The notes under the pieces: model-generated
What the model saw: the letters and a program-made list of their open reading frames with translations, nothing else
Told to the model about the DNA's origin: nothing
The model's database searches: none
Origin: Hormiphora californensis
Taxonomy: Eukaryota > Animalia > Ctenophora
Reading direction: 5' to 3'
Length of the DNA: 64,000 bases
Assembly (NCBI GenBank): GCA_020137815.1
Contig: CM035350.1
Location: forward strand, 7,874,001-7,938,000
Program-made: the position numbers and the translations under genes
In this document: positions 11,168 to 53,700 of the stretch, piece after piece
Position numbering within the stretch: position 1 is the stretch's first letter
Layout: every line of letters begins with the position of its first letter

Positions 11168-11292
11168 TAGATTTTTGTCCATTTCTCACATTTCTCTTTC
11201 AATCTTACAACCAACAGGAAAATGCTTTGTTTGTCAGGGAAAAAACGAATATAGAGGGAGAGAGAGGGAGAGAGAGAAAGAGAGAGAGAGAT

Positions 11293-16361: not shown

Positions 16362-17165
16362 TTTATTGTCTAGGAAAGTATATAATGTTAGCTCAAATAA
16401 ATCTTGGAAGTCAGTTATAAAAATACTATAAAATTTAAATCCCAGGTAAGTTGGTGCCACTGCCTTGTATTGCTAACAATCCATCAATTTTGGCGGTCGA
16501 GACGGGTTAGGCCTTAGGGCTGTCAGGTAGGGGCCTAATTTGGGTTATATTTTGCGTTATCGGTTAGTGATATCGATTATTTATAAGACATTGTTTGGGC
16601 GACTCAAATCGGCGATGTGGCTGCATGGCCATGTCGTTTGTAAGTTGCAAAAGTCGGTCTGAAAAAGTGAAAAAAATTAAAAAAATTCTTACAGATTTTT
16701 ATTTGCATTTCACGCCACCGCCGCGCATATCATTGCACCTGCCTACGACGCAATACGTGTAACGCGCGATATAATATAATCTTAACTGCGGTATAATTTT
16801 GCTTGGCGTCCACGGATTTTATTTTCTGTAAGCGCTTTTTTAACGATTTTCTCCTTTTCGGTTTTTGACAAGTCGTGTCCGTCTCCGTTCTTGGTTCAGA
16901 TTCTACCTACTAACAGACCGAAATCGGATCAAAAGAACCATTCTGGCGATGCGATTTTTATCTTTATTCTCTCTCTTATTCTCGCTCTTTTTTAGATAGG
17001 AGCCTGGCTGCGGGGTGACTGTGAGAACCCCCTGGGCAGTGGGCCCTGCTGGACCGCCTAGCCTGGACGGATTTCTGGTCAGCTTCTCGAGAGTCGAAAC
17101 GAATCTGACGAAACCAGATTTACTTTTTATCTTATTTATTATTAGGATATTTTAGACCTTAATTT

Positions 17166-28927: not shown

Positions 28928-30458
28928 TCAATCATCGTAATCTAAAGACCAATCTACATCAGATTCAACATCTGTGTCCGTACTAAATCGAGCATTTTCC
29001 TGAAGAGGCTCATTTTTAGTTTCATGTTGAATTTGTCCAAACAATATGGCACAAATAAGAAAGACCATTCCTCCGACTGAGAAAAACTCAAACTCATTTC
29101 CAGTAATCCCGTATACAATTATGTAGGGAGATAAGAGGGTGATTGCATGTCCGGAAGAGAATATGAACCCAGTTGCAAGTGCCGGACTGATGTTGGGTAT
29201 ATCTCTTGAATGAACAGGGACACGATAGACATTGATCCGTGATTTAGCGCCAGACCCATCGATATCTTCATGATGAGCATTTCCTTACCATCGCACCACA
29301 GACAGGAGAGAAGGGCTGCAGCAGTAGCAATATAGAGGGTAATCACTGCTGGCTTTCTTCCAACTATCTGGGCCAGGGAGAGACCTGCTACAGTGATTGC
29401 TATACCAAAGATGTAAGCCTTCGTCAAGGAGAAGAGGTTGCTGTCAGAGAGCCCCTTGCAATCATCAATTTCATCCTCTATCGTGGCGTTTTCAGCCGCA
29501 CAATAGGACCCCTGTGGAAAGAGATGGTATTAGTTTCCCTCAGACAAAGTTAGTTCTAAAACATTGAAAAAAGCCTCCCATATATGTATATATTCACCTT
29601 GATTATGAAGGGTATTGCAATGTGAATTGTGGAAGATATCAGATTCTTCAGCAGGAAAACAGCCAGTACAATTAGAGTTGTCTTCTCGAATTCCGGTGTA
29701 AACAACTGCCCAATCTGACCCCTGTTGACGCCCCGTTTGTGTCGAATGAGAGAGGAGACATCCTCCTTTCCATTCCTCATGTATATCTCCCTCAACAGCC
29801 CACACCCTCCTCTGTCCTCCCTGACACCAGGAGGTATCGTGGTGACTCCTCCAAGAAGATGTAGATTATGAGAGGGGTAATACATGGGACTATCATCCAA
29901 AACAGCAACATTCTCCAACTGATGTGTTCATGATCCAAATGGCTGTCATTGCGGCACACGTCGCACCAATCTGACCTGACACCATTAGAGCCATCTTGAC
30001 AAGGAAACGGTACCGACGGGGGGTTATTTCCAGAATCATACACAATGAACTGGGTTTGATAAAGGTAAAGAAGAATAGACATGCTCCCCTACTGATTAGA
30101 AACAGTGTAAAACTGGTTTGGAAAGTAGCCAGAAACCCACTAATAATCATGAAGAGCAGTCCATAAAGGATAACCTTGCGGCGCCCATACTTATCGGATA
30201 TCACTCTCCCGCTAGACCCCCGACAATAAAACTGGTGGATCCCACCATGAGCATGGTCAGAATTTCCTTGTTGCCAAGCGACCACTCACACTGGACACTT
30301 GGCAGGGTCAGTCCGATAGTCATGATTATCTGGACTTCTGTGAAAGACACAACACACGCAGCTAGAAGGTATAGGATCTGGACCCGGCCAAATCCCGCCA
30401 TCTCAATAGCACTGTCCACTGTTATGTACTGCCGCTTCCGCAGTAGCTGTCTGTCCAT
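28928..30458 (-). pseudogene. SV2/SVOP-like MFS transporter with at least 4 frameshifts (pseudogene or indel errors)
   Basis: GFGRVQ, SDKYGRR (motif A), EITPRRYR, EESPRYL and EIYPTSVR are spread over different frames (track ORFs starting at 30458, 30285, 30082, 29918, 29427). One short intron lies at ~29514-29598. Confidence 0.75.
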
Positions 30459-31712: not shown

Positions 31713-32987
31713 ATGTCACTTCTCCTCGATGTACTGTACCTCTTGTTGTTGGTGGGAGGCACCTTGGCCCAGAGCGAGGATCCCTTTGCAGAGTTTGATA
31801 CCGACGAGGCTGTTCTCGTGGAGCAGGATGACTATGACATCATTGAGGTGGGTGTAAAACTGGTGGTTAATTTATTTGTAACATGTGGGTGTAAAACTGG
31901 TGGTTTAGTTTAGTTTGTAATTCTCCTTCATTACGTACATAAAGTTTATGTTTACTAAGATAAAAACATGCTCGTTTATATGAGGCCTTTAATTTTAGGA
32001 TGTCATGATATTTGTATGAACGTGCGTGTCGTATATCACATATTAAGCTTGGAGTTTATCTCCCCTTCGTTAATCTCACTCCATCCCTATTCCAGTCGGA
32101 AGTAGTAGAAGAGCCGCCCCCTGTGACGTCAGACCAACAAATGATTGACGATGACGTTGACACGGGTGATGACGTCACGATAGAGGACGAGGATTTTGAG
32201 GGTGTGGAAACGAACGAGAAACCCGCACCGGGGGGAGGGAATAAAGAACTTAACATTATCAAGGGCCCGATTAATATGAAGGGGCAATGGGAGGACTATT
32301 ATCTCGAGATAATTGGACTAATTGGGGTGTTTGTTTATGCACTTAACTTCTATACCGGTAAAGCTATCAATAACCGGTTGGCTAATGCCTGGTTCGATCA
32401 CCACAAGAAGTTATTGAGCGAGGCGTTCTGTATTGTGGGGGATGATGGTGTCAGTAAGGAAGTTAGCGATGGTATCTTGGTGAAGGAGAGTGAGAACAAG
32501 TTTGTGGTGTGGTGTACAGGTCGGATGGGCTGTGAGGGGATCAAGATCGAGATCAAATTGCTACGTCGACAGGATCTCATCTCTCTGATTTCCCAGTTGT
32601 TCAAACCTCAGTCTGATACAATAACCATCACAACGTACATGGCACCGGATGATATGGACAGTATTGTACTGGCGATAATGCCCAAGAAGGGCCTCAAACG
32701 GCTCCAGCAGGAAGTACAGGACCTGGCCCATTTTGCCACCGAGAGGAAGATAGAGAGTTATGATCTGCCGAGTACACTGGGTATCCTGGTGGAGTTTACC
32801 GAGGTCGCTAACGATTTACTGACTACCCCCGTCTGCAGGACCATCACCGAGAATATTGATGTGTTCGATTCCATTCATTTCTCCGATTACTACACTGGTT
32901 TCAAGATCTCGCAAGAGGGCCAGGTGGAAACGGACCGACCTAAACCCATGAAACGGCTCATCTTCAACTTTGTTATTCCCGGACATG
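31713..32987 (+). CDS. CCDC47: CCDC47 (PAT complex subunit), exons 31713-31847 and 32096-32987; 3' part not seen (gap)
   Basis: Signal peptide, acidic DPFAEFD region, TM (YYLEIIGLIGVFVYALNFYTGK), then N..LA.AWF, IVGDDG, WCTGR..C, L.RRQDL, IHFSD. Confidence 0.9.
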
Positions 32988-33516
32988 GTAAGCCATTATT
33001 TAGCAGCTTATTGCCCCAGATTATCGTCATATGCAGCGTGACAAATTGTACTGTCACTTTCCTAACTCATTCTGCCTCCTCTGAACCGATCATTAGTTCC
33101 CACTGTTGTCTTCCCTCTCTCTCTCTCTCTCTCCCTCCCTCTCTATCTCACTTTCTATCTCTCTCACTTTAATAACTGCAATTGTTCCAGTCGTGTCTAT
33201 AATATGAGTAAAAATAATGCCCCCCCCCCCCCATTATAATACTTCTCATAGGACACATTAGTTGTAACACTGTTGCCAACAATCATGAGAGAGTATATAT
33301 AGAAGAGGAGAGAGAGAGAGAGAGACGAGCCCCAGAGACAGCAATGAGAGAGATAGAGATGGAGACTATTAGAGGAGAGAGAGAGAGGAAAATGTCAGCT
33401 ATTCTCATATATTAGATCGGAGCTATTTACGTGCAGTACAGTAAACTCTTCCTATATCGTTTCCGCAGCTCCGAATCACTCTTCCGCATCTCTCTCTAGC
33501 TCTCTCTCTCTCTCTG

Positions 33517-34729: not shown

Positions 34730-35234
34730 GGAGAGGGAAAGATATAGGGAGAGAGAGAGAAGGAGTGAGAGAGAAAGAGAGTAGAAAGCGAGAAAGGAGA
34801 AAAATAACATGAGAGCCTTTTGTTAGAAAACTCAACAAACACCACTGAGTCAGCAGGTAAACACCACACAACATTTCGCACATGCAGTAATCAGTATTCA
34901 CCCATCAATCCCCTTGCCTACCAACCATAACAACTACTCAATTTGCACGTGAAAATTCTGGAAGCCATTTAATATAGTTAGATGATTTATGTTCTAAATA
35001 TAATATGAATTTCCCTGCCGTGTGAAGCTCTGAAGAAACCATGGCTAGATTATCTGTGTCAGAAAATTTCACGCCACACATTTCCTGAAAATGCGTCAAT
35101 AAAGTGTTTTATGAAGGAGCAGCTCGTTACTGTGTCCACGGCTCTTTAGTTGCTACCCCGTTGCCCCTCACAACAAAATGGGACATTTTCGGTCCCTCGA
35201 TCTACCGATTAGTTAGTGTTTAGTTAGTGACTAG

Positions 35235-35394
35235 TGAAATGAATGAAGTATTGAATGGATGAGTATAATGTTTTGGAGTCGAGTAGGTACTAAGATGACA
35301 ACAGCTAGATTCACCAAACAAGAAGTGTCTTATCTATAAAACATTGCTCACGCATTGCACATGACATAATATAAAATATAACCTATACATCACA
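35235..35394 (-). repeat. 3' LTR (160 bp)
   Basis: Base-for-base identical to 46577-46736 by visual comparison. Confidence 0.95.
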
Positions 35395-35396
35395 TA

Positions 35397-35405
35397 TCCT
35401 TCCCT
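35397..35405 (-). other. Polypurine tract
   Basis: AGGGAAGGA, 2 nt upstream of the 3' LTR on the minus strand. Confidence 0.8.
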
Positions 35406-35583
35406 AAAAAATCAAAAAATACAGAAATATATATATATAATATGAGTGTCCATGTATCAAAACAATCGCATCTTGATAAAACATAAATCAATAAACTTAA
35501 AATATCTTTAACTAATTAATAATTATAACACTATTTAGAAATCCTGTAAATCATATACCGGTATCTTATTCTAACTTTATAAT

Positions 35584-37185
35584 TTATATTTTCCCGGTTT
35601 CTCTGAGATGGAAAATATAATAAGAACTTGATAGAACTTGATTAAACCATACTGAAATTTCCGCTTGACTCTGCGGTGCCCTATTAGAACTCTTTAGGTT
35701 ACTCTTTATATAATCAATGGCCTCTATGAAGAAATCAAATCGCCTGAAAATAAACAACTTTAATTCTTCCTTTAGAACATCCACAGGTTTGGATCTGTGG
35801 GATGTATGCTGCTTTAAAATTGACACTGGAACAAACAATTTAGGGCCACGTCCGAAAGACCTTTTCGTGATGTTGGCCAGAATCTGTACTCTATCTAATA
35901 CTACCAGTAAATCTGAAAAACACTGTATGGGGGCCGATAGCTCGGAGTGGAGGGTGCCCCACCAATCCTCTGTAATGTTATCTAGAAACTCCTTTATAGA
36001 ATCCAACTCCAAATTCGCACTGTAACTGGGTCCCCACTCTTTAGGCCGCAGAGAGTGAACCTCTGGGTCGATCTGTACTTCACTCATAACCTGTAAAATA
36101 GAAGCGTGAGTAGCTCTTCTTTTATCCCCTGTATTTGACAACTTTAAACCATCTAATTTATCTTTAAGGACCTTTAATGTTCTCTCCACCTGCTCTTGGG
36201 AGTTAAATTTAGAAAACCTGTAACCATTGATCTGAGATCGCCCTGCATTGGTGATCCTATTTCTAGCATCAACCCCCGGGTATGGCTCAACTCTAGACGA
36301 CCTGGAAGACACTACAGAGTAGGTCACGTTAGTAGCCGACACGTTAGACGCGGCGGCTGACGCAAATGTAGAACCCCCAAAATGGGCAGGGGTGTTAGCC
36401 TGTAATGGAACGTCAGTATCCCCGGAAATCTTCCGGTCCTGTAGATTAGCTGGGGGTCGCTTCCCCAAGATACCCTGTAAAAACTCTATCTTCTCTGTAA
36501 TCTCCTCTCTTTCGAGAAGGAGGGCCGCTAAATTCTCTTTAGCCTCCTTCTTCTCGTCGGAGGTCATATCCGGTAACTCAGGGTGCCTGAGGGGAGGGAA
36601 TTCCGGTAACTTTACTTTATTCTTTATGTTAGCCTTTACCGCCTCGATGTACTTGGCGGGTACTTCATACTTACGAACTGGACAAATACGGTCCAGCTCC
36701 CTGTAATCCCCGACTAAGAAGTCAGGTTCGCAGACTTTAACAAACTCTACCTGTATTTTACACACCTCTAGAGACCATCTGGCCATTTTCCATGTAAATG
36801 GCTTCTCTGAACTGTAACATCCTGTAAGAAAATTCTGTATATTGGACAGTCTGTCCCTAGTGGAACTGCCACTAGTCAGACTGTACCGCTGTAGTGCGAA
36901 GTCGGCCTGGACCTTGTCACGGTCCGACATCGCACTCCACCCTACCTGTAGACACCTAGCCACTGGGGCTAGTTTTGATGGAACTGTAAATTTGTCACCT
37001 GTATCAGAGGCAACACTGCCGTCTGTAACTACTCCTGTACCGGCCGAAGCCCAACTATCCTTATCTGTATCGTCCTTACCTGTAGTGGTGGCTCCTGCCA
37101 CCGATACTTCACCTGTAGCCCCTAACCGCTCCATCTCCTCGTCCACGTTCCAGTCCAGTGCATCCGGTGGCTGGTTGCTGTCCAT
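35584..37185 (-). CDS. Orphan accessory ORF4 of the provirus, 533 aa
   Basis: Intact ATG-to-stop ORF between env and the PPT, on the same strand; no recognisable family, signal peptide or TM. Confidence 0.8.
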   Translation of the reverse strand: MDSNQPPDALDWNVDEEMERLGATGEVSVAGATTTGKDDTDKDSWASAGTGVVTDGSVASDTGDKFTVPSKLAPVARCLQVGWSAMSDRDKVQADFALQRYSLTSGSSTRDRLSNIQNFLTGCYSSEKPFTWKMARWSLEVCKIQVEFVKVCEPDFLVGDYRELDRICPVRKYEVPAKYIEAVKANIKNKVKLPEFPPLRHPELPDMTSDEKKEAKENLAALLLEREEITEKIEFLQGILGKRPPANLQDRKISGDTDVPLQANTPAHFGGSTFASAAASNVSATNVTYSVVSSRSSRVEPYPGVDARNRITNAGRSQINGYRFSKFNSQEQVERTLKVLKDKLDGLKLSNTGDKRRATHASILQVMSEVQIDPEVHSLRPKEWGPSYSANLELDSIKEFLDNITEDWWGTLHSELSAPIQCFSDLLVVLDRVQILANITKRSFGRGPKLFVPVSILKQHTSHRSKPVDVLKEELKLFIFRRFDFFIEAIDYIKSNLKSSNRAPQSQAEISVWFNQVLSSSYYIFHLRETGKI

Positions 37186-37246
37186 CCGCGACTGCCGTAG
37201 TAAATTCCTAAAAAAGTCTACAAGGGAAGTTGGAGCGTTAATGTAT

Positions 37247-38971
37247 TTATCCTGTAGTCGAATTTACGGAATCTAGATCTGTATCTGTTCCTTTATCTAC
37301 AACCATGTTATAATCGACTATGTATTGCTTTAATCTATATCTAATAAATACTATTACTCCTATAATGCCACCAATATAAAGCAGTATAATTATTCCTATA
37401 GCTATACTTAAACCTATATTGAAATGGTCTTTATATTTATTGTTAAACAACGGAATAAAAGCACTGGAAAGGGTGGTATTATACTTTAAGCTTAACTCAT
37501 TAATATGCTGTATAACTTCGTCTGCTGTATACCTAAAATGCAATCTAGACAAAGTTAAATTGTAAGAAGCCAAGACAATGGGCTCACTCGTTACTGATCT
37601 AGATAATATTTGTACTCCGCACACAATTAAACTCGAAAAATCTTCCCATTTAACAAAAGAAGATTTCGTTGTGGGGAGAGATGGGTGAATAACGTTAAGT
37701 TCATCCTGTACTACGTAACTAGAGCTATCTAGATCTCTGAATAAAATACCAGTAGAAATAATGCTGTAAGTGCACCTAGGCCTGCACGTCTCTGTAATCA
37801 GCGAGCAACTAAATGTTTTCGACTGTATACACGATGTACTGTTTACTATAGTAAATGATGAGCATACATGCAAAGCGTTATGTTGAGAGCAACTTGATAT
37901 ATCTATATCTATAAACTCATTACCTTTAAGAACTACATATTTAGGGAGGTCAAATCTACCACACTCATTTCCCTTGATCGAAAAACCTACTTGATGCGAC
38001 TTAAATAACGGGAAAATATGCTCAGACTCTTTAATAACTGGTATATGGATAACAAAATGAGCTAAGGAAAAGTCTTCATCTAAACTCAGTAGCGAAATTT
38101 TTGCAATAGAATACATTAAATGTGGCTCTTTATAAAAAATTGATTCTTTAATCTCTGTGTGCTCCTGTACCATTAATTTTAACGTAATAGGATCAATTAA
38201 CTTAGGGGTAAGAACTAAGTCATTCTGGCCTGATAAGGCCGGGAACAAAATATCGTCGATGATCCTAGAACACCTCCAGAACAACGACTCTAAATCCCTA
38301 ATTAAATCGTTAGCATCACTGTAGCATGTTTTAGAATCCATGTATCGTATAAGTATCTCATCTACCGATTTAACGTAAGAAAAGATGTTACTTTGCACTG
38401 TATTTAGCTCTACCTCTTGATTATTAACTACTTCTCGAATCTCGTTAATTACTTTAGAATTATCCTTAATGTGACTCTTTATGCTACTAATTCTATTTGA
38501 ATTAATACCGCTAAACACCAGGCTACCTATGGTGCCTACTCCCAACACAAAATCTGTTAAAGATCTACGATCTCTGTGCCGACTCACTGTATCTACTTTA
38601 TCCTGTATAATATAAGGCGCTAGTGTGCGTTTACGAACAGCTATAAACTCTTCCGCTCTACTAATCCAAGCTAAGGCTGAATAATTCATGGACTGTATAT
38701 CGTGAAAATTATTAGACTCCCTTACTAAGTGCCTAATGCGGGGAAAATTAGAGGGAGGTTTGCACGACAAAGCATCTGTATTAGCTTCAACTTGATGTTT
38801 TAACTTGTGTACTAAATCTGGAAGCTTTATAAAAACTGATATAACTGATTCTTGATTAGATATGGCTACTTTACCAACTTGATCTACTGCTAGTCCTCGC
38901 CCATGATCTAACAAAGTATGACCACAATTAGGCGGGACTAAAATACTTATAAGTAGTAGGGCAATAAGCAT
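37247..38971 (-). CDS. env: Envelope class I fusion glycoprotein (F-type), ~574 aa from ATG 38971
   Basis: Signal peptide MLIALLLISILVPPNCG, furin site RHRDRR, fusion peptide SLTDFVLGVGTIGSLVFSG, heptad repeat, Cys-rich block, sequons NYS/NST/NLT/NTT, C-terminal TM and short tail. Confidence 0.9.
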   Translation of the reverse strand: MLIALLLISILVPPNCGHTLLDHGRGLAVDQVGKVAISNQESVISVFIKLPDLVHKLKHQVEANTDALSCKPPSNFPRIRHLVRESNNFHDIQSMNYSALAWISRAEEFIAVRKRTLAPYIIQDKVDTVSRHRDRRSLTDFVLGVGTIGSLVFSGINSNRISSIKSHIKDNSKVINEIREVVNNQEVELNTVQSNIFSYVKSVDEILIRYMDSKTCYSDANDLIRDLESLFWRCSRIIDDILFPALSGQNDLVLTPKLIDPITLKLMVQEHTEIKESIFYKEPHLMYSIAKISLLSLDEDFSLAHFVIHIPVIKESEHIFPLFKSHQVGFSIKGNECGRFDLPKYVVLKGNEFIDIDISSCSQHNALHVCSSFTIVNSTSCIQSKTFSCSLITETCRPRCTYSIISTGILFRDLDSSSYVVQDELNVIHPSLPTTKSSFVKWEDFSSLIVCGVQILSRSVTSEPIVLASYNLTLSRLHFRYTADEVIQHINELSLKYNTTLSSAFIPLFNNKYKDHFNIGLSIAIGIIILLYIGGIIGVIVFIRYRLKQYIVDYNMVVDKGTDTDLDSVNSTTG

Positions 38972-39566
38972 CAACACACGTTGCAAAGTCTCAGAAGAAG
39001 AGAAAAATGGAAATAAACTAAAATTATCTTGCTGCAACGGAAGGGTTATATGATAAACAGGGTGTGCTCGTGAAACTTACTGCGCTGTTACCACTTATCT
39101 CTTAATCTACAAATTACTGCTCTTGCAGAGCGTGATATAATAAAATTATGCTGCTGCTCAGCACCTCGGCTGAGTCGTTATCGGCTAAATGAAGTTTTAA
39201 CCTAATTAATTAAGTAAAATATACAGTGGGATAAAAGAGAAACTTTAACACTTACTAAAGCTTTGTTAAGAGAGAGCTCAAAAAGTTCCATAAGATAGGA
39301 ATAATTCTAAGATAATCTGTGAGAAAAAATGTTAAAATCTTTCGGTACCTCTGTGCTGAAAGGGGTTCTGTGAAATATGATAAGAAGAGAACTGCGTCAC
39401 CTATCACTGTCAATACCATGTGATTGTTCAGTGACAGGCTGACCAATTATCTCCAAGACCCTATTACAAGCACTAAAATCTTGAGAATAAAACTAAAGAT
39501 TAGAGGTACGTGGAAAAGTGAATTATTTCACTTGAGTGGGAGAAAAAGAAGTTAATTAACAAAAAA

Positions 39567-40479
39567 TTAACTTTTCTTTTTAAGACTAACCTTGCTCTTT
39601 ACTGAAGGTATTGTCTTACTAGGTTTAGACTGCTGTCTCCCGTTATCTGTATCCGCTTGAAGAGTCTTTTCCTTTACCGGATCACTCTTATTGGATCCTG
39701 AAATCTTGGTTGATTTCTTGGTATACGGAATACTTGAACTCTCAAAGTGGCTGGTGGGTTGAGGATTCTTCCTCAAAGTATAAGGACCTTTATTCCTACC
39801 TTTATCTTTAGACGGAAGTAAACTACTCTCTGACTTAGTTCTACTTCTCGTTTTAAGACCTGTATAAGTACTAGTAGACAGGGATGAATCATCCTTCACC
39901 TGATTTGTTGATGCTGGTGTTGGTTTTACCGGTGTACTCGTCTCGGCATCAAAGAATTGATCCGGTGACTCGCTATCATCATCATCATCATCAGTTGGTG
40001 GTTCCTGTAATGGGGTTACTTCACCTTGGTTCTGAGGATCAGTTTCATTCTCTGAAGCTGCAATTAGAGGTGTAGGAGGTGATACTGATTCTCCTGGTTC
40101 CTCTGTTGACTCTGCTTCTGGAATCACCTGAACATCTGTAGTTTCGTCATCCTTATCCTGTATTGGAGAGACCTCTTTATCTGTAGTTAGTGTTAAATCT
40201 ATATTCTCACTCTCTTTAGGGGTTTCATGAGGGGGAGGGGGAGGGGGAGGGGGAGGGGGATGGGGATGGGGATGGGGAGGGGGAGGGGGAGGGGGAGGGG
40301 GAGGGTTAGAGGGGTTAGATTTAGGAGAATTTGGTGGGGAGGGGGATTTTGAAGGATTGGAAGGGGAGGTAACCCTTGATCTGGTGAATGGGGCTGTTGG
40401 AATACTGTCCCATTCAGAATCCGTGTAGTCATCTGTAGTCTCATAACTTGAAGCTCGATACCTTGTTTTCCCTGTATTA
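39567..40479 (-). CDS. C-terminal low-complexity tail of Pol, detached by the MITE insertion
   Basis: Removing 40480-41402 plus one TATTA copy gives a continuous frame ..KIDN-TGKTRYRASSYE..PPPP..DVQVIPEAEST..KKKS*. Confidence 0.85.
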
Positions 40480-41402
40480 TTAGGGCGTTTCAGAAATAAC
40501 TTCGCTTCGCGATATTTTGGGATCTATGATAGATAGAGACTTCTACCCAGTTTTATCTTGTTCAATGGACGATTCTCTTCTTGGGAACGTGTTTTGAATA
40601 GTTTACGGCAATGTTTAGTACCAAAAATTGGGTGATATGATACCAGAAGTCATGTTGCCGCTGAACGGGGTTCCCAGAGTTTTTCAAACGCCGCTGGAGA
40701 GGAGCTGATATGGATTTTTGGCTTTCTGTAGCGCTCAATCGATAGCCCATCGTCTAAGGATGAGATATATATGCGATTTGGGCCTCGACGCGTTGCTCAA
40801 AAACCTCTTGGACAGTAAGTGTAACATAAAAAGTCGAAAAAATGCAAAATTTCACCTCAATTTTTGGCTTGTTTTGGGGGTATGTTCGAAAACGTCAATT
40901 ATTAACTTTTATATGTCAACAAATCAAATAATTGGCTTGACTATGTGATAGAACTTCCTTAGAGCTATCTTTTGCTGCAAAGTTTTTGATTATGAGCTAC
41001 TCATATAAAAGGTGAAGGGACCCGGAAGTGAAACTTTCCAATTCTTACCGAATTTTTTTGGAGGCCGATTGCTCAGCCGCAAATAAAGTTAGGATCTTCT
41101 ATTACATCTTAAACGATAGATAATTGTCTAATTAACAAGCTTGATGCAATAAAACATCCCACAGATTCAATTTTCAAGAAGTACAGTAGTTTCAGCACTA
41201 TGCGCGTTTTTCCCGTTCAGCGGCAGTTTGAGTTAAAGGTGTTTCCGGGTTCGCTGAGAGCCACCCCTGATCAAAAATTTCAAAATAACTACGGTTGTGA
41301 GTAGTCAAGACTTCAAATAACACGCTACAAAAGTGTATATGTGGATATCTTCAATACTTTTTGAAAATATCGGGAGACGAAGTTATTTCTGAAACGCCCT
41401 AA
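40480..41402. mobile_element. 923-bp MITE inserted in pol
   Basis: Perfect TIR TTAGGGCGTTTCAGAAATAACTTCG; TATTA duplicated at 40475-40479 and 41403-41407; a diverged relative of its internal sequence sits at ~33850-33960. Confidence 0.9.
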
Positions 41403-44400
41403 TATTATCAATTTTATCTATATTGGGAGAGTATTTGTTAGGGGTATAATGTTTCATTTTTGAAATATTAATTACTCTCTCTGTATCTCCTATTTGTACC
41501 CTGTATAAATGCTGATTAATTACCTCGTTAACCTTATATGGTCCTGACCACTTATGTCCAAATTTATGTAATGGTACATTAATTAAAACCATACACTGCA
41601 TTCCTGCTTCAAAATAAGGACCTCTCGCATTCTTATCATAACTGTTAGCCATGAACTGAGCTTGTTTCTCAACTTGAGAGCTAACCTTCCGAACTGTATC
41701 TCGTACCTTTAGATAAACTTTATAAGCCTCGGTTTCATAATCTTTAAATTCCTTATCTTGAGGGTCTGGAATAAACAAATCTCGTGGTGAACGAGCTTCT
41801 CTACCAAACACCAAGAAATTAGGTGAAAATCCGGTACGATTAGATCTCATACAATTAAGGGTAAATACTATCCAATCTATATACTGGTCATATTTATGAA
41901 AATCTTTATTTCCCATTATAGCTCTAAAACATGTATTTATTCTACGGTGGGAAGATTCAACTCGGCCTTGAGTGGAAGACTTCCACGGAGTCGAGCGAAC
42001 ATTACTAATACCAAAAACTTTACATGTCTCTTTAAATAATTTAGACTCAAAACCTGAACCCTGATCATGACTAATTGAATCAGGTACACCAAATCTGGAA
42101 ATCCAATGCTTTAATATAGCCTTTATTGTGTGGTCAGCACTAGTTGATCGTACTGGTACACAAACGATATATGAACTGTAAAGATCAATCATAGTGAGCA
42201 AGGCAACATTACCAGATGGCGTTCTGCCCTTTTGTGGCTCGAGATGATCTATCTGTAGGCATGCATTGAATGATTCACAGAATTGTGGCTTTAACGGCGC
42301 TTTAAGTGGCCTATTAGTGGCTTTAACCTGATGACATGTGATACAAGCACCTACATACAACTTTATTTCCTGCTTTATTTTATAGAAGTGAAAACGCCTA
42401 GAAACTTGATCAACCGTGTTTTTAACACCTGGGTGACAACTACCCATGAGATTGTGAAACATGTAGATAGCACGCTTTATGAGAGTATGTGGAACTACTG
42501 TTACCCAATTATAATTATTACTCTCTTGATTAAATACTTTATATTTTAACAACCCTTTACTATACTTTAATAGTTCAAATTTCCGATAATAATACCAAGT
42601 CTCACGGTTACTTCGTATTGGATCAATATCTTCTGGTTTCGATCCAACCGAGACCCAAGATATAACTTCAGATAATATCATGTCATTTTGATACTCTCTG
42701 ATGATATCATCCGTGGTGACTGGATCTAGAGACTCATTTTCACAATCTGGCTCTGAAACTCTGAGTACTCTCTCAAACCTTGACACCATATCTCCTTCAT
42801 TTTCTGAATTGCTATTTACCTCATTACCGTTATCAACATCATAATTTTCACAATTTTCACTTTGCTCTTCATCTGTATCCTGTACCGATATATGCCGCAC
42901 AGAGTTCACAGTCTGTGTGCCGACCGTGTTCTCCGAGATGCCGTAAGCATATCGACTGAGATAATCTGGTATCTGTATCTCCTGCGATTTACCAGAAACA
43001 TGATGGATTGTAAACTGGAAACCTGAGAGATCTGATAACCTTCTCTGCATATATGCATTATCTTTACTAAAAATAGTATTCAAATTCTGTAAACTCTTAC
43101 AATCAGTATAAACTGTAAACTTTGTTCCCTGTAAGTATAATCTCCAATTCATAATAGCTGAATGCAATGCTAAAAACTCTAACCTAGTTGCACCCCATCT
43201 CTGGAAATGCTTAGGAAGCTTCTTAGAGTAATATGATATCACTTTACGTTTTTTAGTCCTTGAATCTAACTGAGACAAAACTGCACCAAGTCCCTTTTTT
43301 GACGCATCCAGAGTCAAAACATACGAAGAGTATTCGTCATTAACACTTGGAATACCCAAAATAGGAGCAGTAGCTAAGCAAGACTTTAGCTTGTCAAATG
43401 AAACTTGACACTCTTTAGTCCACTTAAACTCTGTAATAGATTTACCTGTAAGGTCATATAATGGAGCTGAAATTGAAGCAAAATCTCTAATGAAAAGTCT
43501 ATGATAATTAACCATTCCCAAAAACTTTTGAACTTGCTTCACACTAGTGGGAGGTGGTAAATTTTTTATAGCTTTAACTTTATCGTGATCTACCGCTATT
43601 CCTTCTTTAGAAATTCTAAGACCTAAAAACTTAACTTCCTGTTGAAACAATTTGGTCTTCTTTGGAGAAAGTTTCAAATTGCCAAAAGTTAATCGGTCTA
43701 GAACAAACCTCAATCGCTTTAGATGCTCTGGATAAGTGTTACTACAAATAAGTAAATCATCTATGTATAGTAAGAGTGCTTTAAACGGTACTTTTTGAAA
43801 TAAACAAGCCATAGCCCTTGAAAACTCACTACTTGACGAAGTTTGACCCTGTATCATACGGTTGAACATGTATCTCTTGCTATCATAAGTAAATGCCGTG
43901 AGATGTCGACTTTTCTCTTCTAGCCCGATCTGTGTGAATGAACTCACAAAATCGAGTGAAGACAAAATCTCTGTCTCCGTAAGACGGTCAAATACATTTC
44001 TAATCTTAGGTAGCTCATAATTATCCTGTATACATTGTGAATTTAAACTTCTCGCATCTGTAACAAAACGATAAGTAGATCCTGTAGAATTAGATTTGGG
44101 TACCATAAACACTGCTGAATTCCATAAACTGTACTTACATGGAGAAATCTGGCCTGACTTACATAATGCAGCGATTTCCTGATCCATGTGGGGCTTTATT
44201 TTGTACGGAATGGGCCTAGATGGAACCCATTTAGGTACAAAATCACGCTTTAAATTCAATTTTGACTCATAAAATGATGCACAACCTAGATCATTCTTAT
44301 CACGAGCAAAACAATGACTATACTCTGTAACTAACTCTTTCAATTGCTCTCTGTAGAGTGCGGGAACATGAGAAAGGTTGTCAATTTGCAATTGCTCATG

Positions 44401-45342
44401 CAGCTGATTGACATCTTTCCATTTTCCTGTCTCAATAGTCTCCTCTACCGTACATGCAGTATCTAGACGGGGAATGTCTAGATCGGCATTATACCACTCT
44501 TCTTTACCCGTTACTCTTTTCAAAGATCTTACTTGATCTGTTTCACCTTTATTAATCGGCTCAAAAAATCCAAGTAGCTGATTTCTGTATACCTTTATTG
44601 CATTATCTGTGGGGTTGACGCAATGCACGTGAATTTTATTACCTTTAGAGTAAGATAATGTTCCGGTCACTAACAAATTTGATTTGCATGGTAAGCTACG
44701 ATAAGGTTCAACCACTCCTTCATAATTGTTGTCACGCTGTTTCTTAGATAACGGAAAGTTCCCAAGAACAAACATGGAACAATTAGGTGGAACTGTAACA
44801 GTCTGAGATAATCTAATTCTAACTTTATTCTTTATAACAAGGGGTTTTAATTGACTCTCACACACTCTATTAGAGATTCTAACTGTATTAGATGGAACAT
44901 CAATAATCATTTCCATGGATCTGATAACATCCATACCGAGTAAGAAATCGGTATCAATATGATCACATACGATGAAAGTTTCAATACTACTAGCACCATT
45001 TATCTCTATCTGTAAATCTATCTCACCTCTCATCGGTATAAGCTTCTGACTAAGACCTGCTATAAGCTTATTAGTGGGTTTTACATTATCAGCTAAACCT
45101 ATAATATGTACGAGTCTAGTAGCAACTAAACTGACATGAGCTCCTGTATCTACTAAATAATTTACTGGTTGATCTCCACAAAACCCATTCAAAACAATAT
45201 CACGTGAGAGAGGTCTCCTTTGTCGAGACTCATTCGCACATCTATTGACGGAGCTAGATGGTTCTTGCGAATGTGAATCAACGGTAGGGTTGCCTGTAGA
45301 TATAAAATACCTCTCTCTAAAGAAAATTCTGTTTATGACCAC
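41383..45342 (-). CDS. pol: Pol polyprotein (protease, dUTPase-like spacer, RT, RNase H, integrase), truncated by the MITE
   Basis: LVDTGA; YIDD; LDASKKGLGAVL..LEFLAL..TDCKSL; HHCC (H..SCHPG..CITC); D-D-E (IDH, HDQG, RVES); WSGPY. Confidence 0.95.
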   Translation of the reverse strand: MVINRIFFRERYFISTGNPTVDSHSQEPSSSVNRCANESRQRRPLSRDIVLNGFCGDQPVNYLVDTGAHVSLVATRLVHIIGLADNVKPTNKLIAGLSQKLIPMRGEIDLQIEINGASSIETFIVCDHIDTDFLLGMDVIRSMEMIIDVPSNTVRISNRVCESQLKPLVIKNKVRIRLSQTVTVPPNCSMFVLGNFPLSKKQRDNNYEGVVEPYRSLPCKSNLLVTGTLSYSKGNKIHVHCVNPTDNAIKVYRNQLLGFFEPINKGETDQVRSLKRVTGKEEWYNADLDIPRLDTACTVEETIETGKWKDVNQLHEQLQIDNLSHVPALYREQLKELVTEYSHCFARDKNDLGCASFYESKLNLKRDFVPKWVPSRPIPYKIKPHMDQEIAALCKSGQISPCKYSLWNSAVFMVPKSNSTGSTYRFVTDARSLNSQCIQDNYELPKIRNVFDRLTETEILSSLDFVSSFTQIGLEEKSRHLTAFTYDSKRYMFNRMIQGQTSSSSEFSRAMACLFQKVPFKALLLYIDDLLICSNTYPEHLKRLRFVLDRLTFGNLKLSPKKTKLFQQEVKFLGLRISKEGIAVDHDKVKAIKNLPPPTSVKQVQKFLGMVNYHRLFIRDFASISAPLYDLTGKSITEFKWTKECQVSFDKLKSCLATAPILGIPSVNDEYSSYVLTLDASKKGLGAVLSQLDSRTKKRKVISYYSKKLPKHFQRWGATRLEFLALHSAIMNWRLYLQGTKFTVYTDCKSLQNLNTIFSKDNAYMQRRLSDLSGFQFTIHHVSGKSQEIQIPDYLSRYAYGISENTVGTQTVNSVRHISVQDTDEEQSENCENYDVDNGNEVNSNSENEGDMVSRFERVLRVSEPDCENESLDPVTTDDIIREYQNDMILSEVISWVSVGSKPEDIDPIRSNRETWYYYRKFELLKYSKGLLKYKVFNQESNNYNWVTVVPHTLIKRAIYMFHNLMGSCHPGVKNTVDQVSRRFHFYKIKQEIKLYVGACITCHQVKATNRPLKAPLKPQFCESFNACLQIDHLEPQKGRTPSGNVALLTMIDLYSSYIVCVPVRSTSADHTIKAILKHWISRFGVPDSISHDQGSGFESKLFKETCKVFGISNVRSTPWKSSTQGRVESSHRRINTCFRAIMGNKDFHKYDQYIDWIVFTLNCMRSNRTGFSPNFLVFGREARSPRDLFIPDPQDKEFKDYETEAYKVYLKVRDTVRKVSSQVEKQAQFMANSYDKNARGPYFEAGMQCMVLINVPLHKFGHKWSGPYKVNEVINQHLYRVQIGDTERVINISKMKHYTPNKYSPNIDKIDNIRAFQK

Positions 45343-46546
45343 TTGATTCTCTATAAACGTTATTAATAGTTTTCTTTAAACCTGGACAATTCTTCATATA
45401 ATGCTCACCTTTACAAATATAACACTCTAACTTACGACTACGGGAATCAGATCTACCGATATTACTATATCGCCCTCTACTGTTAGAGCGACCTCTGTAT
45501 GAACGATCTCTATAACTGAATCTATCCGAAGATCGTCTTCGGCCTCTGGACCTGTCCCAGGAACGGTCACGAGAACGATCGCGTGAGCGATCCTGAGATC
45601 GATCGCGAGAACGATCGCGAGAACGATCACGGTAGCGACCTTGAGAACTATCCCGGTAACGACCTTGAGAACGATCACGAGAATTACCTCTATACCTTTC
45701 CCTAGAATCGGATCTATTTCTGTATCCCGATCCACCTGCAGTGTTTGATTCAGAACTATAAGGTGTAGAACTCCGATAATTACCTTTATAATTGCGGTTT
45801 CTTGGCCTTGATCTATCAGAACTAAATCTTACCTCTGTAGTGGAACTCTTCATGATACTTGATGTAGAAGAAGATGTTGCTTCCTCCTCTTGATCCTTCG
45901 CGAGACGCTCAAGATGCTTGGCCTGCCTCACTGCGGTCTTGAATGAATCTAGATCCACGTTTTCGTTCAACTTGGTCCGGATACCTGGATCTGAAATACC
46001 TTTAAGGAATACCAACAAGCACTGGTCTTCAGCTGACTCCTTATCTTCTGGATAAGCTAGAGAAGCCTTTTTCCGCAATTTAAAAACATAATCTGAAATG
46101 GATTCGTTAGTCAACTGTTTACAAGCGTTTAACTGACGCCTCAGAGAAAACCTCTGTTCCCCGTAAATAGCTTTCTTGAAGAGTTCAAGAAACCGTTCGT
46201 GACTCTCTTGATCGTATTCATCAACTGTAACAGACTTAAACAACTGGTAGGTCTTATCATCCTTTATACTCTGCATAAACATTGGAAACTGCCTACTACT
46301 ACCTAGGCGAGCAACTTGACAATACTCTGCATATCTCTCGCAATGCAACATGAAATCATCTCCTTTATTGAAAGATGGACGTTCTGTCTGATTGGACAGA
46401 TTTAACAACTGAATAGCACTTGACAACTCAACTTCTCTACCCGAGCTTTCTTGAAGCTTGGATTCAAGCTCACTCTTGAAATCTGGATCATCCTTTATTA
46501 ACTGATCGACGCGCTCACTTATCTGTGTCTTAGTGAGATCCGTCAT
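45317..46546 (-). CDS. gag: Gag (capsid-like region, RS-rich linker, CCHC zinc knuckle)
   Basis: KQLTNESISDYVFKLR MHR-like motif, RDRS repeats and CYICKGEHYMKNC; the ATG is ~30 nt from the 5' LTR. Confidence 0.92.
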   Translation of the reverse strand: MTDLTKTQISERVDQLIKDDPDFKSELESKLQESSGREVELSSAIQLLNLSNQTERPSFNKGDDFMLHCERYAEYCQVARLGSSRQFPMFMQSIKDDKTYQLFKSVTVDEYDQESHERFLELFKKAIYGEQRFSLRRQLNACKQLTNESISDYVFKLRKKASLAYPEDKESAEDQCLLVFLKGISDPGIRTKLNENVDLDSFKTAVRQAKHLERLAKDQEEEATSSSTSSIMKSSTTEVRFSSDRSRPRNRNYKGNYRSSTPYSSESNTAGGSGYRNRSDSRERYRGNSRDRSQGRYRDSSQGRYRDRSRDRSRDRSQDRSRDRSRDRSWDRSRGRRRSSDRFSYRDRSYRGRSNSRGRYSNIGRSDSRSRKLECYICKGEHYMKNCPGLKKTINNVYRESSGHKQNFL

Positions 46547-46563
46547 CAAACAATTGGTTTTTA

Positions 46564-46574
46564 ATCAGGCTCCA
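46564..46574 (-). other. Putative primer-binding site
   Basis: TGGAGCCTGAT begins 2 nt after the 5' LTR, and TGG pairs with a tRNA CCA end. The tRNA identity is not established. Confidence 0.65.
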
Positions 46575-46576
46575 AT

Positions 46577-46736
46577 TGAAATGAATGAAGTATTGAATGG
46601 ATGAGTATAATGTTTTGGAGTCGAGTAGGTACTAAGATGACAACAGCTAGATTCACCAAACAAGAAGTGTCTTATCTATAAAACATTGCTCACGCATTGC
46701 ACATGACATAATATAAAATATAACCTATACATCACA
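46577..46736 (-). repeat. 5' LTR (160 bp)
   Basis: TGTGATG...CATTTCA on the minus strand, identical to the 3' LTR. Confidence 0.95.
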
Positions 46737-47317
46737 CTAGTGTATCAAAGATTATGTGATTTTCGAATTCTAACCGTCCTTAGGACGGTCCTAATGGCAG
46801 TTATTGTCATTGAGTGCAGTACGCAGTTGTGTTTGAGTGAAGTGAGTGGGTGAAGACGTGAAGTGCGTGCATTATGTAGGTAGTTGCCTGACTTGTACGT
46901 AAGAAGTAATTGAGTCACCCGGGTTGGTTTTTATCGAGTGATTATACACTTCCAGCAAACTATATGACAATGGGTGATCGTTTGGTGGACCATATTGTTT
47001 ATTATTACCATGGTAACCTTCCCATGAAGCTATGGTGAGTCTAATTCGATCATAAATACCATTACACGACAATCCAATATGGAAGTGTTGATGAGAAACT
47101 CGCCGAGAGGGTGGGAGAGAGATATAATAATTAATAGAGCTACCTGCTACAGCTGTTTGTGGCAAAGAATGTGGGGAGCCCATGAGAGACAACTTTCATT
47201 TTCATTTTCAGCCGCTAATGCGATCAGCTTCCACTTTCACTTTCACTACCGAAGCCGTTGAGACGAATGGCAGGGTAAGCCACCTGCTGCCGGTTGTGGT
47301 ACTGGTAGAGAATTTTG

Positions 47318-50700: not shown

Positions 50701-53700
50701 AAAGTACAAACCCCTCTACCTCTAGATACCAATACAAACCCCTCTACCTCTAGATACCAGTACAAACCCTTTACCTCTAGATACCAGTACAAAACCCTTT
50801 ACCTCTAGATGCCAGTACAAACCCCTCTACCTCTAGATACCAGTACAAAACCCTCTACCTCTAGATACCAGTACAAACCCCTCTACCTCTAGATGCCAGT
50901 ACAAACCCCTCTACCTCTAGATACCAGTACAAACCCCTCTACCTCTAGATACCAGTACAAACCCCTCTACCTCTAGATACCAGTACAAAACCCTCTACCT
51001 CTAGATACCAGTACAAACCCCTCTACCTCTAGATGCCAGTACAAACCCCTCTACCTCTAGATACCAGTACAAACCCCTCTACCTCTAGATACCAGTACAA
51101 ACCCCTCTACCTCTAGATACCAGTACAAACCCCTCTACCTCTAGATGCCAGTACAAACCCCTCTACCTCTAGATACCAGTACAAACCCCTCTACCTCTAG
51201 ATACCAGTACAAACCCCTCTACCTCTAGATACCAGTACAAACCCCTCTACCTCTAGATGCCAGTACAAACCCCTCTACCTCTAGATACCAGTACAAACCC
51301 CTCTACCTCTAGATACCAGTACAAACCCCTCTACCTCTAGATACCAGTACAAACCCCTCTACCTCTAGATACCAGTACAAACCCCTCTACCTCTAGATAC
51401 CAGTACAAACCCCTCTACCTCTAGATGCCAGTACAAACCCCTCTACCTCTAGATACCAGTACAAACCCCTCTACCTCTAGATACCAGTACAAACCCCTCT
51501 ACCTCTAGATACCAGTACAAACCCCTCTACCTCTAGATGCCAGTACAAACCCCTCTACCTCTAGATACCAGTACAAACCCCTCTACCTCTAGATACCAGT
51601 ACAAACCCCTCTACCTCTAGATACCAGTACAAACCCCTCTACCTCTAGATGCCAGTACAAACCCCTCTACCTCTAGACACCAGTACAAACCCCTCTATCT
51701 CTAGATACCAGTACAAACCCCTCTACCTCTAGATGCCAGTACAAACCCCTCTACCTCGACTAGATGCCAGTACAAACCCCTCTACCTCTAGATACCAGTA
51801 CAAACCCCTCTACCTCTAGATACCAGTACAAACCCCTCTACCTCTAGATGCCAGTACAAACCCCATCTACCTCTAGATACCAGTACAAACCCCTCTACCT
51901 CTAGATGCCAGTACAAACCCCTCTACCTCGACTAGATGCCAGTACAAACCCCCTCTACCTCTAGATACCAGTACAAACCCCTCTACCTCTAGACACCAGT
52001 ACAAACCCCTTTACCTCTAGATGCCAGTACAAACTCCTCTACCTCTAGATACCAGTACAAACCCCTCTATCTCTAGATGCCAGTACAAACCCCTCTACCT
52101 CTAGATGCCAGTACAAACCCCTCTATCTCTAGATACCAGTACAAACCTTTTACCTTTGCATGTCAGTGCAGCATTGAACATACAATTATAAATTATATTA
52201 TCCATAATATAATTTAGATTTTTACCAGTTCCGTACTCACTACTCACCCTAAAACCAGCCTAACCATTATCGTTCCTTCAGCGGAATGGTGTAATACCGA
52301 TGCGTGCAACGAGTACTCCGCCCGATTGAATTGTTTCGCGTGTGATGCCGACGTAACTGATATTGATACCCTGTGTGATGCAAAAGATACTACTGCCTTC
52401 TGTGGAGTTGCTGAGCAGTGTGCTTCAGTCTTCTACATGGCGTAAGTATTATAGCAGGGGTACGTGGTGCGGTAGGAGCTGCAACTAAATTTGAAATGAT
52501 AATTTATAGAACATACCATGAATCATATCTTACTATAGTAAAAGCAAAAATGTCCTCAAACATCAGACATCATAATATGCACTTGGAAATAGTGACACAG
52601 TTTCCATGGATCTGGGTATCTCTATTATAATTTGGAGATGTCGCGTGATGGTCTTTCGTTCAGTGCGTTTCTACGCGACAGACTGCTCCTTCATAAAACA
52701 CTTCATATGACCAAAGCTGTTACTCACAGTTTTGGAACTTTCAGTCAGTGGAAGTTTATTAATATTTTCGAATGCCTTTTAACATGCCAGTCCCCATAGT
52801 TACCAATTCAGTTGCCATGGCAACCGTGTTGAAAGGGGCGAAAAGAACCACCAGGCGAAGCCGGGTGGGTTATCAAAAAGCCCTTACTTGAGCGCACCCA
52901 ATGGGTGCGCTAGTCTAAACTAAGATCATATCTTTACAGTGAGGAAGGGTAGAATATTGCACGTGCAACTCAAGTACTGTTTTCACATCACCTTGCGTGT
53001 GCTTGCTCCCATCCTGACTTCACCCTACGACACCACCATCTGCACCATTATCCACCAATTGGTTACGAAGTCACCCGTATTATTGATACATCCGTGTATA
53101 TCCATTAGGGTCACCACACACCAAAGTTAAAATTAAAATTAAAATTTGACGTTTTTGGTCATAACTCTGCCGTTTCTTGGCAAAATTGCTTCTTTTTGGG
53201 CTCATTTGAAAGAGGGCATCGAGCCCGTTCTGAAGAGCTCAAGAAACTTAAAATCGGTGCAGAGTGCGCGGCGTTAAGGCGCATAATGCGCGCGTTAAAA
53301 TTTTAAAATTTTAACGCACACATTTTGCACTGTAACGCCGCACACTTTGCGCAGATTTCAAGTTTCTTGAGCTGTTCAGAACGGGCTCGATGCCCTCTTT
53401 CCAACAAGCCCAAAATGAGGCAATTTTGCCAAGAAATGGCAGAGTTATGACCAAAAACGTCAAATTTTAATTTTAATTTTAACTTTGGTGTGTGGTGACC
53501 CCTAGCTATTATAGCGCAAAGGAGTAATTTCATTACCAAACCAATACCCAAGAAGGAAGGCCCTACTGCATATACCTGTCACCCAAGTTCAAGGCAGTCA
53601 ATTACAATTAGGCATCACATCCCATGTATCCAATCCCGTCCGTAGGGCGGGAATTTCCGCTTGTATTTCTAACCCATGGAACTACCCTACAGGGCAGATA

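What the first reader, a model, noticed from the sequence alone, without database searches (positions are those of the whole stretch)
37247..38971. Env resembles pneumo/paramyxovirus F, including an RSV-like fusion peptide
After the polybasic site RHRDRR (38564-38581) comes SLTDFVLGVGTIGSLVFSGINSNRISSIK. This recalls RSV F1 FLGFLLGVGSAIASG more than the baculovirus-F/errantivirus pattern. It is followed by a heptad repeat, a dense Cys cluster, a second helical region, a TM and a tail with a YNMV (YxxPhi) motif. The ORF is intact, making it a candidate novel fusogen relevant to the origin of class I F proteins.
Basis: partly seen in the sequence, partly recalled or inferred. Interest (0 to 1): 0.85.

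Follow-up and report, generated by a model that had tools for sequence, protein, structure and literature searches.

The report
Comb-jelly retrovirus-like element's fusion protein
This is the intact envelope gene of a retrovirus-like jumping gene, likely recently inserted and likely from a comb jelly, whose protein is predicted to fold like the fusion proteins of RSV, measles and related viruses; such elements are already published, and the special likeness to RSV's fusion peptide is likely a coincidence.

Summary
It is the env of an 11.5-kb Ty3/gypsy-type LTR element with identical LTRs and a 4-bp target duplication. Its nearest relative is a Pleurobrachia protein.

The model (pLDDT 81) has the class I F fold. 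Among solved structures pneumovirus F leads paramyxovirus F by only 1-2 Z units. Sequence profiles favour paramyxoviruses. Among predicted viral structures, lispivirus glycoproteins are clearly closest. The RSV-like peptide letters occur in 3 of 58 family members and not in the nearest one. Env is under purifying selection (dN/dS about 0.24).

F-type env Ty3/gypsy elements, ctenophore ones included, are published (eLife 2026, PMC13524379). Verdict: new member of a known kind. Left open: the lispivirus link and a fourth ORF with no relative found.

The parts
46577..46736 (-). 5' LTR, 160 nt, TG...CA
   Evidence: 100% identical to 35235-35394; ends read
35235..35394 (-). 3' LTR, preceded on the minus strand by a purine-rich tract
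35231..35234 (.). target-site duplication, 4 bp (partner at 46737-46740)
   Evidence: a contig of run X2 joins 35229 to 46736, i.e. an empty site, 23 letters on its short side
46563..46574 (-). primer-binding site, 2 nt inside the 5' LTR
   Evidence: its last 9 nt occur in only 2 places of the 7 supplementary files of PMC13524379, both rows of ctenophore ENV_F elements
45317..46546 (-). gag, 409 aa, RS-rich stretch and C-terminal zinc-knuckle-like motif
   Evidence: position and motif read by eye; no Pfam hit at cut-off
41383..45375 (-). pol frame, 1330 codons: protease-like, RT, single RNase H, integrase; overlaps the gag end in another frame
   Evidence: Pfam RVT_1, RT_RNaseH, Integrase_H2C2, rve; 46% identical over 1305 aa to related polyprotein P0174
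40478..41402 (.). about 925-nt insertion bounded by 44-nt inverted repeats (MITE-like), interrupting the region behind the integrase core
   Evidence: arms 40475-40518 / 41364-41407, 91% complementary; a contig of run X5 skips these 925 nt with 5 letters fitting either side
39567..40523 (-). 318-codon frame without Met, Pro/Ser/Asp-rich; likely the cut-off disordered tail of Pol
   Evidence: P0174 has a similar low-complexity tail after integrase but no significant alignment (E 0.093)
37247..38971 (-). env, 574 aa, F-type class I fusion glycoprotein (the finding)
38564..38581 (-). polybasic cleavage site, aa 131-136 (R-X-R-R)
   Evidence: R136 nearly invariant; R-X-K/R-R in 33 of 58 sequences
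38504..38563 (-). predicted fusion peptide, aa 137-156
   Evidence: hydropathy peak; Gly-rich hydrophobic stretch at this place in the aligned sequences, letters variable
38372..38509 (-). heptad repeat A, aa 155-200
37772..37963 (-). Cys-rich beta core, aa 337-400
37343..37399 (-). predicted transmembrane helix, aa 525-543
35584..37185 (-). fourth ORF, 533 aa, between env and the 3' LTR; no relative found, no strong TM
   Evidence: dN/dS about 0.38 on 23 listed differences, p 0.04

Best explanation
The ORF is the intact env gene of an LTR retrotransposon with Ty3/gypsy-type domain order, likely recently inserted and likely from a ctenophore, and its product is predicted to be a class I F-type fusion glycoprotein that would be cut by a furin-like protease and would let the element's particles fuse with neighbouring cells, likely to reach the germ line. 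Shown here: the element's anatomy, the intact frame, the motifs, their conservation, purifying selection, and a confident model with the F fold. Inferred from paramyxo/pneumovirus F and Drosophila errantivirus biology: the signal peptide sends F0 to the secretory path; cleavage after R136 gives F2 (about aa 18-136) and F1, held by a C70-C216 disulfide; the protein trimerises; on triggering, the aa 137-156 peptide inserts into the target membrane and HR-A and HR-B zip into a six-helix bundle. Env is probably made from a sub-genomic spliced RNA, since pyrimidine tracts ending in AG lie before env and before ORF4. It is one of many deep F lineages, not a specific RSV relative.
For: Identical LTRs, TG..CA, 4-bp duplication, PBS; empty-site contig, and internal depth about half the flanks in run X2 (depth is only a hint). 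RT-RH-IN order. Nearest of 214 relatives is a Pleurobrachia bachei protein, 37% identical, sister with SH-aLRT 99 in a quick tree; PBS shared with 2 published ctenophore ENV_F rows. A profile of 58 sequences hits F proteins in its top 25 PDB rows (best 1ztm, E 1.8e-8), with a profile Cys aligned to an F2 Cys. Model pLDDT 81, core 92.5; 13 of 13 chains at Z>=8 among 48,161 are pneumo- or paramyxovirus F in both wide searches. ESM Atlas top clusters are F0, score 0.97, though recognition was below the tool's threshold. dN/dS 0.235, 21 synonymous to 19 non-synonymous, p 3e-5. Mechanism in flies: passages of 10.1101/2023.08.03.551782.
Against: No cleavage, fusion, trimer or expression was shown. 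The protein alone hits neither Pfam Fusion_gly nor any PDB sequence. Host is inferred from relatives and PBS, not from host genes. No Pol tree was built. dN/dS rests on 40 of 99 listed differences (aa 344-517) against one other copy. A contig of run X9 carries a one-base insertion in env, so not all copies are intact. This copy has an insertion behind the integrase core, so its own mobility is uncertain.
Confidence: 0.88

Rival explanations
1. One reading: the Env is specifically allied to pneumovirus (RSV) F, and the fusion peptide is a shared inherited trait.
For: RSV and hMPV F rank first among solved chains: whole model Z 14.2 and 14.1 (rmsd 5.3 and 5.0; 367 and 351 aligned) against NDV 13.0, PIV5 11.9, hPIV3 11.3; core Z 9.4-11.1 (rmsd 4.0-4.8; 214-224 aligned) against 8.3-9.1. 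The peptide's local score against the quoted motif ranks 3rd of 58.
Against: Margins of 1-2 Z at 8-10% identity, lower than the 10-13% to paramyxovirus F. The profile ranks hPIV3 and measles first, hMPV at 2e-5, and shows no chain identifiable as RSV F. In BFVD lispivirus-type glycoproteins fill the top ranks and RSV fragments come at E 8e-9 (whole) or TM 0.28-0.32 (core), though those RSV models are fragments with high rmsd. LGVG is in 3 of 58; in register the peptide ranks about 30th of 58; the nearest relative lacks it. The published F tree has limited deep resolution.
Confidence: 0.1
2. The env was captured recently from an exogenous marine mononegavirus of the lispivirus type, not inherited with the element from early animals.
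For: Lispi/arlivirus-type glycoproteins take ranks 1-9 for the whole model (best E 1.7e-22) and 1-8 for the core (TM 0.65-0.71, 15-20% identity).
Against: The env sits deep inside a family of 214 relatives, of which at least P0010/P0174 is tied to a gag-pol 46% identical to this one while its env is only 25% identical, which points to long joint descent. The published study finds env and pol trees congruent.
Confidence: 0.07
3. The env is a decaying or non-fusogenic passenger, or a host-domesticated gene.
For: No function shown; one related copy has a frameshift; this copy has an insertion behind integrase.
Against: dN/dS 0.24; all hallmarks intact; it lies between identical LTRs at a site that also exists empty, which argues against domestication.
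Confidence: 0.05

Closest known systems
F-type 'ancient errantiviruses' (env-carrying Ty3/gypsy), incl. ctenophore ENV_F elements Mlei_1, Bfor_1, Bova_3, Hcal_2, Pbac_1, Pbac_2 (Chary and Hayashi, eLife 2026, PMC13524379)
   Same: LTR-gag-pol-env order, F-type Env with furin site and fusion peptide, RSV-like head and stalk in models; PBS ending shared with Mlei_1 and Bfor_1.
   Different: Short 160-nt LTRs (about 575 and 715 nt for those two rows); a fourth ORF after env (word searches of the main text found no such ORF described); a MITE-like insertion. Whether this copy is one of the three ENV_F rows without a PBS could not be told.
Lispiviridae (arlivirus) glycoproteins and Wenling thamnaconus filovirus glycoprotein (BFVD models)
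   Same: Best structural neighbours among viral proteins: similar length, core TM 0.65-0.71.
   Different: Encoded by negative-strand RNA viruses; 11-20% identity; predicted models only.
Pneumovirus F (RSV, hMPV) and paramyxovirus F (Pfam PF00523)
   Same: Fold, order of signal peptide, F2, basic site, fusion peptide, HR-A, Cys-rich core, HR-B, TM.
   Different: 8-13% identity; below Pfam threshold; one basic site before the peptide (RSV's second site and p27 are recalled, not tested); no partner attachment protein evident in the element.
Drosophila gypsy/ZAM Env and baculovirus F (PF12259, PF07253)
   Same: Third ORF of a Ty3/gypsy element with signal peptide, furin site, fusion peptide, Cys, TM; fold match E 1e-16 to a granulovirus F.
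   Different: Only 1 of 58 family members hits Baculo_F and 1 weakly Gypsy; core TM at most 0.53.
Lokiretrovirus Env (Wang and Han, PMC7947760)
   Same: Retroelement Env with similarity to PF00523.
   Different: Loki elements are vertebrate and carry a tether plus RNase H; here Pfam finds one RNase H directly after RT.

Membership tests
F-type errantivirus (env-carrying Ty3/gypsy) | LTRs, PBS and target duplication | tested here: met
F-type errantivirus (env-carrying Ty3/gypsy) | gag, pol, env in this order; RT and integrase whole in one frame; order RT-RH-IN | tested here: met
F-type errantivirus (env-carrying Ty3/gypsy) | Pol classed as Ty3/gypsy by GyDB profiles or tree | not tested
   No GyDB profiles here and no Pol tree built; only domain order and 46% identity to P0174
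F-type errantivirus (env-carrying Ty3/gypsy) | Env with signal peptide, furin site, fusion peptide, TM and F fold | tested here: met
   signal peptide judged by hydropathy only
'ancient' errantivirus group | single RNase H followed by a 'mini' domain | tested here: inconclusive
   One RNase H by Pfam; bridge region not folded
F-type errantivirus (env-carrying Ty3/gypsy) | several near-identical copies per genome (most, not all, published elements) | tested here: inconclusive
   No genome held; contig depth hints at one heterozygous copy
Class I F fusogen | F fold of the ectodomain core | tested here: met
   Z 8.3-11.1 over up to 224 of 231 residues; first non-F row Z 6.8 (foamy virus Env), other folds 4.1 or less
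Class I F fusogen | homotrimer and six-helix bundle | not tested
   Three ectodomains exceed the 1000-residue limit; no complex job sent
Class I F fusogen | proteolytic priming and membrane fusion | not testable with these tools
   needs expression
Pfam Fusion_gly PF00523 | score at or above gathering threshold | tested here: not met
   no hit for P0001 up to E 1; 10 of 58 alignment members hit at E<=0.1
Pfam Baculo_F PF12259 | score at or above gathering threshold | tested here: not met
   no hit for P0001; 1 of 58 members
Pneumovirus-type F | RSV-type fusion-peptide letters conserved in the family | tested here: not met
   3 of 58; absent in nearest relative
Pneumovirus-type F | closer in structure to pneumovirus F than to other F proteins | tested here: inconclusive
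   ahead of paramyxoviruses by 1-2 Z in PDB, behind lispiviruses in BFVD
Lokiretrovirus | tether domain plus second RNase H | tested here: not met
   single RT_RNaseH region directly after RT against the description

The most novel reading that the evidence does not exclude
The ctenophore env family is the retroelement sister of the lispivirus glycoproteins and keeps a pneumovirus-like core geometry, so it marks the lineage through which F-type fusogens passed between Ty3/gypsy elements and Mononegavirales; and these elements are 'complex', carrying a conserved fourth gene after env that is expressed by splicing or spliced-leader trans-splicing.
Probability: 0.17. Interest if true: 0.65.

Novelty: new member of a known kind. 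Interest (0 to 1): 0.3.

Why it matters
As a class this is known: the eLife study lists 1,512 env-carrying Ty3/gypsy elements, 9 from ctenophores, 6 of them F-type. The value of this copy is as a young, well-delimited example from an early-branching animal. Two points go a little beyond the paper's main text: the nearest viral structures are lispivirus glycoproteins ('lispivir' occurs 0 times in it; a four-term search listed 2 papers on other subjects), and there is a selected fourth ORF with no relative found. If a proper tree upheld the lispivirus link, it would bear on where F fusogens of RSV, measles and their kin came from.

Tried and rejected
Single-sequence searches gave nothing useful: Pfam only DUF3290 at E 0.059, PDB 0 hits to E 10. 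The word-indexed search gave 1 relative with the protein and 0 with the alignment. No relative of Env in metagenome contigs (0 of 69 candidate stretches). ORF4: 0 of 7,993 candidates, no Pfam, 2 weak PDB rows at E 0.04 and 0.98, 0 of 10 viral stretches, no Atlas hit, no match among 182 fetched proteins or to L001; it was not folded. No RNA holder was listed; guessed-RNA run X13 laid only one 34-nt piece. Run X10 (organism A, another sample) has no contig over the env body; contigs do not show absence. No baculovirus F or gypsy Env appeared in the PDB lists, which does not exclude them. A search of 7 supplementary files for an 8-residue env motif gave 0 hits; uninformative, since long cells are cut and F sequences may not be held; the figure supplements with the F alignment and tree could not be read. 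No further CCDC47 exon was recognised by a crude scan. The careful tree did not finish; the quick tree is used. In one search the cleavage point was mis-parsed in about 7 of 58 rows, so the in-register rank is approximate. Rejected: domesticated host gene, lokiretrovirus, Baculo_F membership, RSV-specific peptide. Earlier-finding look-ups by place and by sequence were empty.

Full report
Observation. The minus-strand ORF 37247-38971 is open for 574 codons. The polybasic site is aa 131-136 (nt 38564-38581) and the hydrophobic Gly-rich peptide follows at once. The three strongest hydrophobic windows are the TM (aa 525), the N-terminus (aa 3) and this peptide (aa 138). Heptad patterns lie at aa 155-200, 204-241 and 478-512. 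There are 12 Cys, five N-glycosylation sequons and YNMV at aa 554.

Context. The ORF lies in an 11.5-kb LTR element on the minus strand: LTRs 46577-46736 and 35235-35394 are 160 nt and identical, end TG..CA and are flanked by a 4-bp duplication. Inside are gag (45317-46546), pol (41383-45375; RT, one RNase H, integrase), env, and a fourth ORF of 533 aa (35584-37185). In run X2, which may be the window's own sample, one contig joins the two flanks without the element (23 letters on the short side), and internal contigs have depth about 35 against 62-75 for the flanks and 72 for the LTR. That fits a single heterozygous, recent insertion; the tool warns that depth is not copy number, so it is a hint. 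A second organism (runs X5, X9) holds a copy about 95% identical over env (80 differences in 1,625 nt).

Host. Not shown from host genes. The nearest of 214 relatives (37% identity, E 5e-93) is a Pleurobrachia bachei protein and is sister to the query in a quick tree of 58 of those relatives, chosen as near full length (SH-aLRT 99). The last 9 nt of the PBS occur in only two places of the eLife supplements, both ctenophore ENV_F rows. A ctenophore host is therefore likely.

What Env is. Alone it hits no F family. A profile of the 58 sequences ranks F proteins in its top 25 PDB rows, led by 1ztm (hPIV3 F by its title; E 1.8e-8), a measles F (3.7e-7) and, lower, hMPV (2e-5); no chain identifiable as RSV F is among the 59 rows, though many rows are named only 'Fusion glycoprotein F0'. 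Ten of 58 members hit Pfam Fusion_gly, one Baculo_F. The AlphaFold model has pLDDT 81, the aa 240-470 core 92.5. Against 48,161 representative chains, all 13 rows at Z>=8 are pneumo- or paramyxovirus F for both models. R136, C70, C216 and six core Cys are conserved in 52-58 of 58 or flagged nearly invariant. Against the X5 copy, 40 of 99 listed differences (aa 344-517) give 21 synonymous and 19 non-synonymous, dN/dS 0.235, p 3e-5.

Is it RSV-like in particular? For: RSV and hMPV lead among solved structures, whole model Z 14.2 and 14.1 against 13.0 (NDV), 11.9 (PIV5), 11.3 (hPIV3); core Z 9.4-11.1 against 8.3-9.1, mostly with lower rmsd. Against: identity to pneumovirus F is 8-10%, to paramyxovirus F 10-13%; the profile prefers paramyxoviruses; in BFVD lispivirus-type glycoproteins take ranks 1-9 (E to 1.7e-22), then a fish filovirus glycoprotein (9e-18), a granulovirus F (1e-16), paramyxovirus F (2e-15) and RSV fragments (8e-9); the core also puts lispiviruses first. 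The RSV entries there are fragments with high rmsd, so their low rank is not clean evidence. The LGVG letters are in 3 of 58 sequences and not in the nearest relative. I read the peptide likeness as chance within a generic Gly-rich hydrophobic peptide, and the deep affinity as unresolved, with lispiviruses the best lead.

Mechanism. Shown: anatomy, conservation, selection, predicted fold. Inferred from known F proteins (own knowledge) and fly errantiviruses (passages of 10.1101/2023.08.03.551782): secretion, furin-type cleavage after R136, F2-F1 disulfide C70-C216, trimer, peptide insertion and hairpin collapse; particles made in somatic cells enter germ cells. Pyrimidine-rich tracts ending in AG precede both env and ORF4, which suggests spliced messages; spliced-leader trans-splicing in ctenophores is recalled and seen only in a search listing (PMC8527503).

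Comparison with the literature. Chary and Hayashi (preprint 10.1101/2023.10.26.564294: abstract, section 6 and 7, first parts of sections 5 and 14, passages; eLife version PMC13524379: passages, section 10, word searches of supplementary tables) describe F-type env in Ty3/gypsy elements across animals, state that the models strongly resemble RSV F, and list 9 ctenophore elements, 6 F-type. Their F tree with viral proteins has limited deep resolution. Wang and Han (PMC7947760, passages) report F-like Env in lokiretroviruses. PMC12440569 (abstract) and PMC13709462 (passages) added nothing decisive. Figure supplements with the F alignment and tree could not be read and bear on whether this family or lispiviruses were included. 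Two earlier scan notes (unchecked) report accessory genes around env in another gypsy element and an F-type env in a copia element, which lowers the surprise of both features.

Side features. A 925-nt insertion with 44-nt inverted ends lies behind the integrase core; the pol frame stops inside one arm, a Met-less 318-codon frame lies on the other side, and the X5 copy lacks the insertion. ORF4 has no relative in any search but shows weak purifying selection (9 synonymous, 14 non-synonymous of 23 listed differences, dN/dS 0.38, p 0.04). L001, which encodes a member of the nearest relative's cluster, also starts an ORF after env, cut by the contig end, without detectable similarity.

Verdict. 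Real, intact, F-type fusogen gene of a young Ty3/gypsy-type element; new member of a known kind; interest 0.3. Most novel reading not excluded: sister relation to lispivirus glycoproteins plus a conserved fourth gene, probability about 0.17.

Noticed in passing
window 35584-37185 (-): 533-aa ORF between env and the 3' LTR; no relative or family found, weak purifying selection; L001 also begins an ORF after its env (2194-2445).
   Followed up: partly
window 40478-41402: MITE-like insertion with 44-nt inverted ends and an inner 23-nt inverted pair, 5 letters fitting either side of the joint; high contig depth in runs of both organisms suggests a repeat family; absent from the X5 copy.
   Followed up: partly
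window 45300-45375: pol overlaps the gag end in the +1 frame; the X5 copy differs by one base just past the gag stop, so the gag-pol frame relation differs between copies. Unresolved.
   Followed up: no
window 46563-46574: Unusual PBS shared with two published ctenophore elements whose tRNA type is listed only as 'others', each with one mismatch; the primer tRNA is unidentified.
   Followed up: partly
window 35393-37057 and 37028-40222: In run X1 the contig over ORF4 has depth 732 and the one over env 71, against 15 for gag-pol; X2 of the same sample shows about 35 throughout. Could be library bias or, if X1 is RNA, sub-genomic messages.
   Followed up: no
window 32141-33172 (+): Host gene exon for CCDC47 (Pfam E 6e-56, profile 1-242 of 326), about 2 kb from the 3' LTR; the rest of the gene was not located.
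   Followed up: partly
window 29556-30458 (-): Pieces of a membrane-transporter-like host gene (MFS-like by eye).
   Followed up: no
window 9897-11169: Nested long inverted repeats (435 nt, 98%; 95 nt, 98%), foldback-like element.
   Followed up: no
window 53108-53501: 197-nt palindrome, 91% complementary, no spacer.
   Followed up: no
window 23887 onward, 50338 onward and 11712-12300: Tandem arrays with 14-nt, 28-nt and 39-nt units.
   Followed up: no
window 14568-16472 (-): 634-codon stop-to-stop frame, not examined.
   Followed up: no
P0077, P0080, P0111, P0130: Several distant env relatives carry PAN/apple domains at the N-terminus, possible attachment modules.
   Followed up: no
BFVD hits: The model also matches an abalone herpesvirus protein (E 4e-13), ranid herpesvirus proteins and a fish filovirus glycoprotein, hinting at a wide spread of the F fold.
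   Followed up: no
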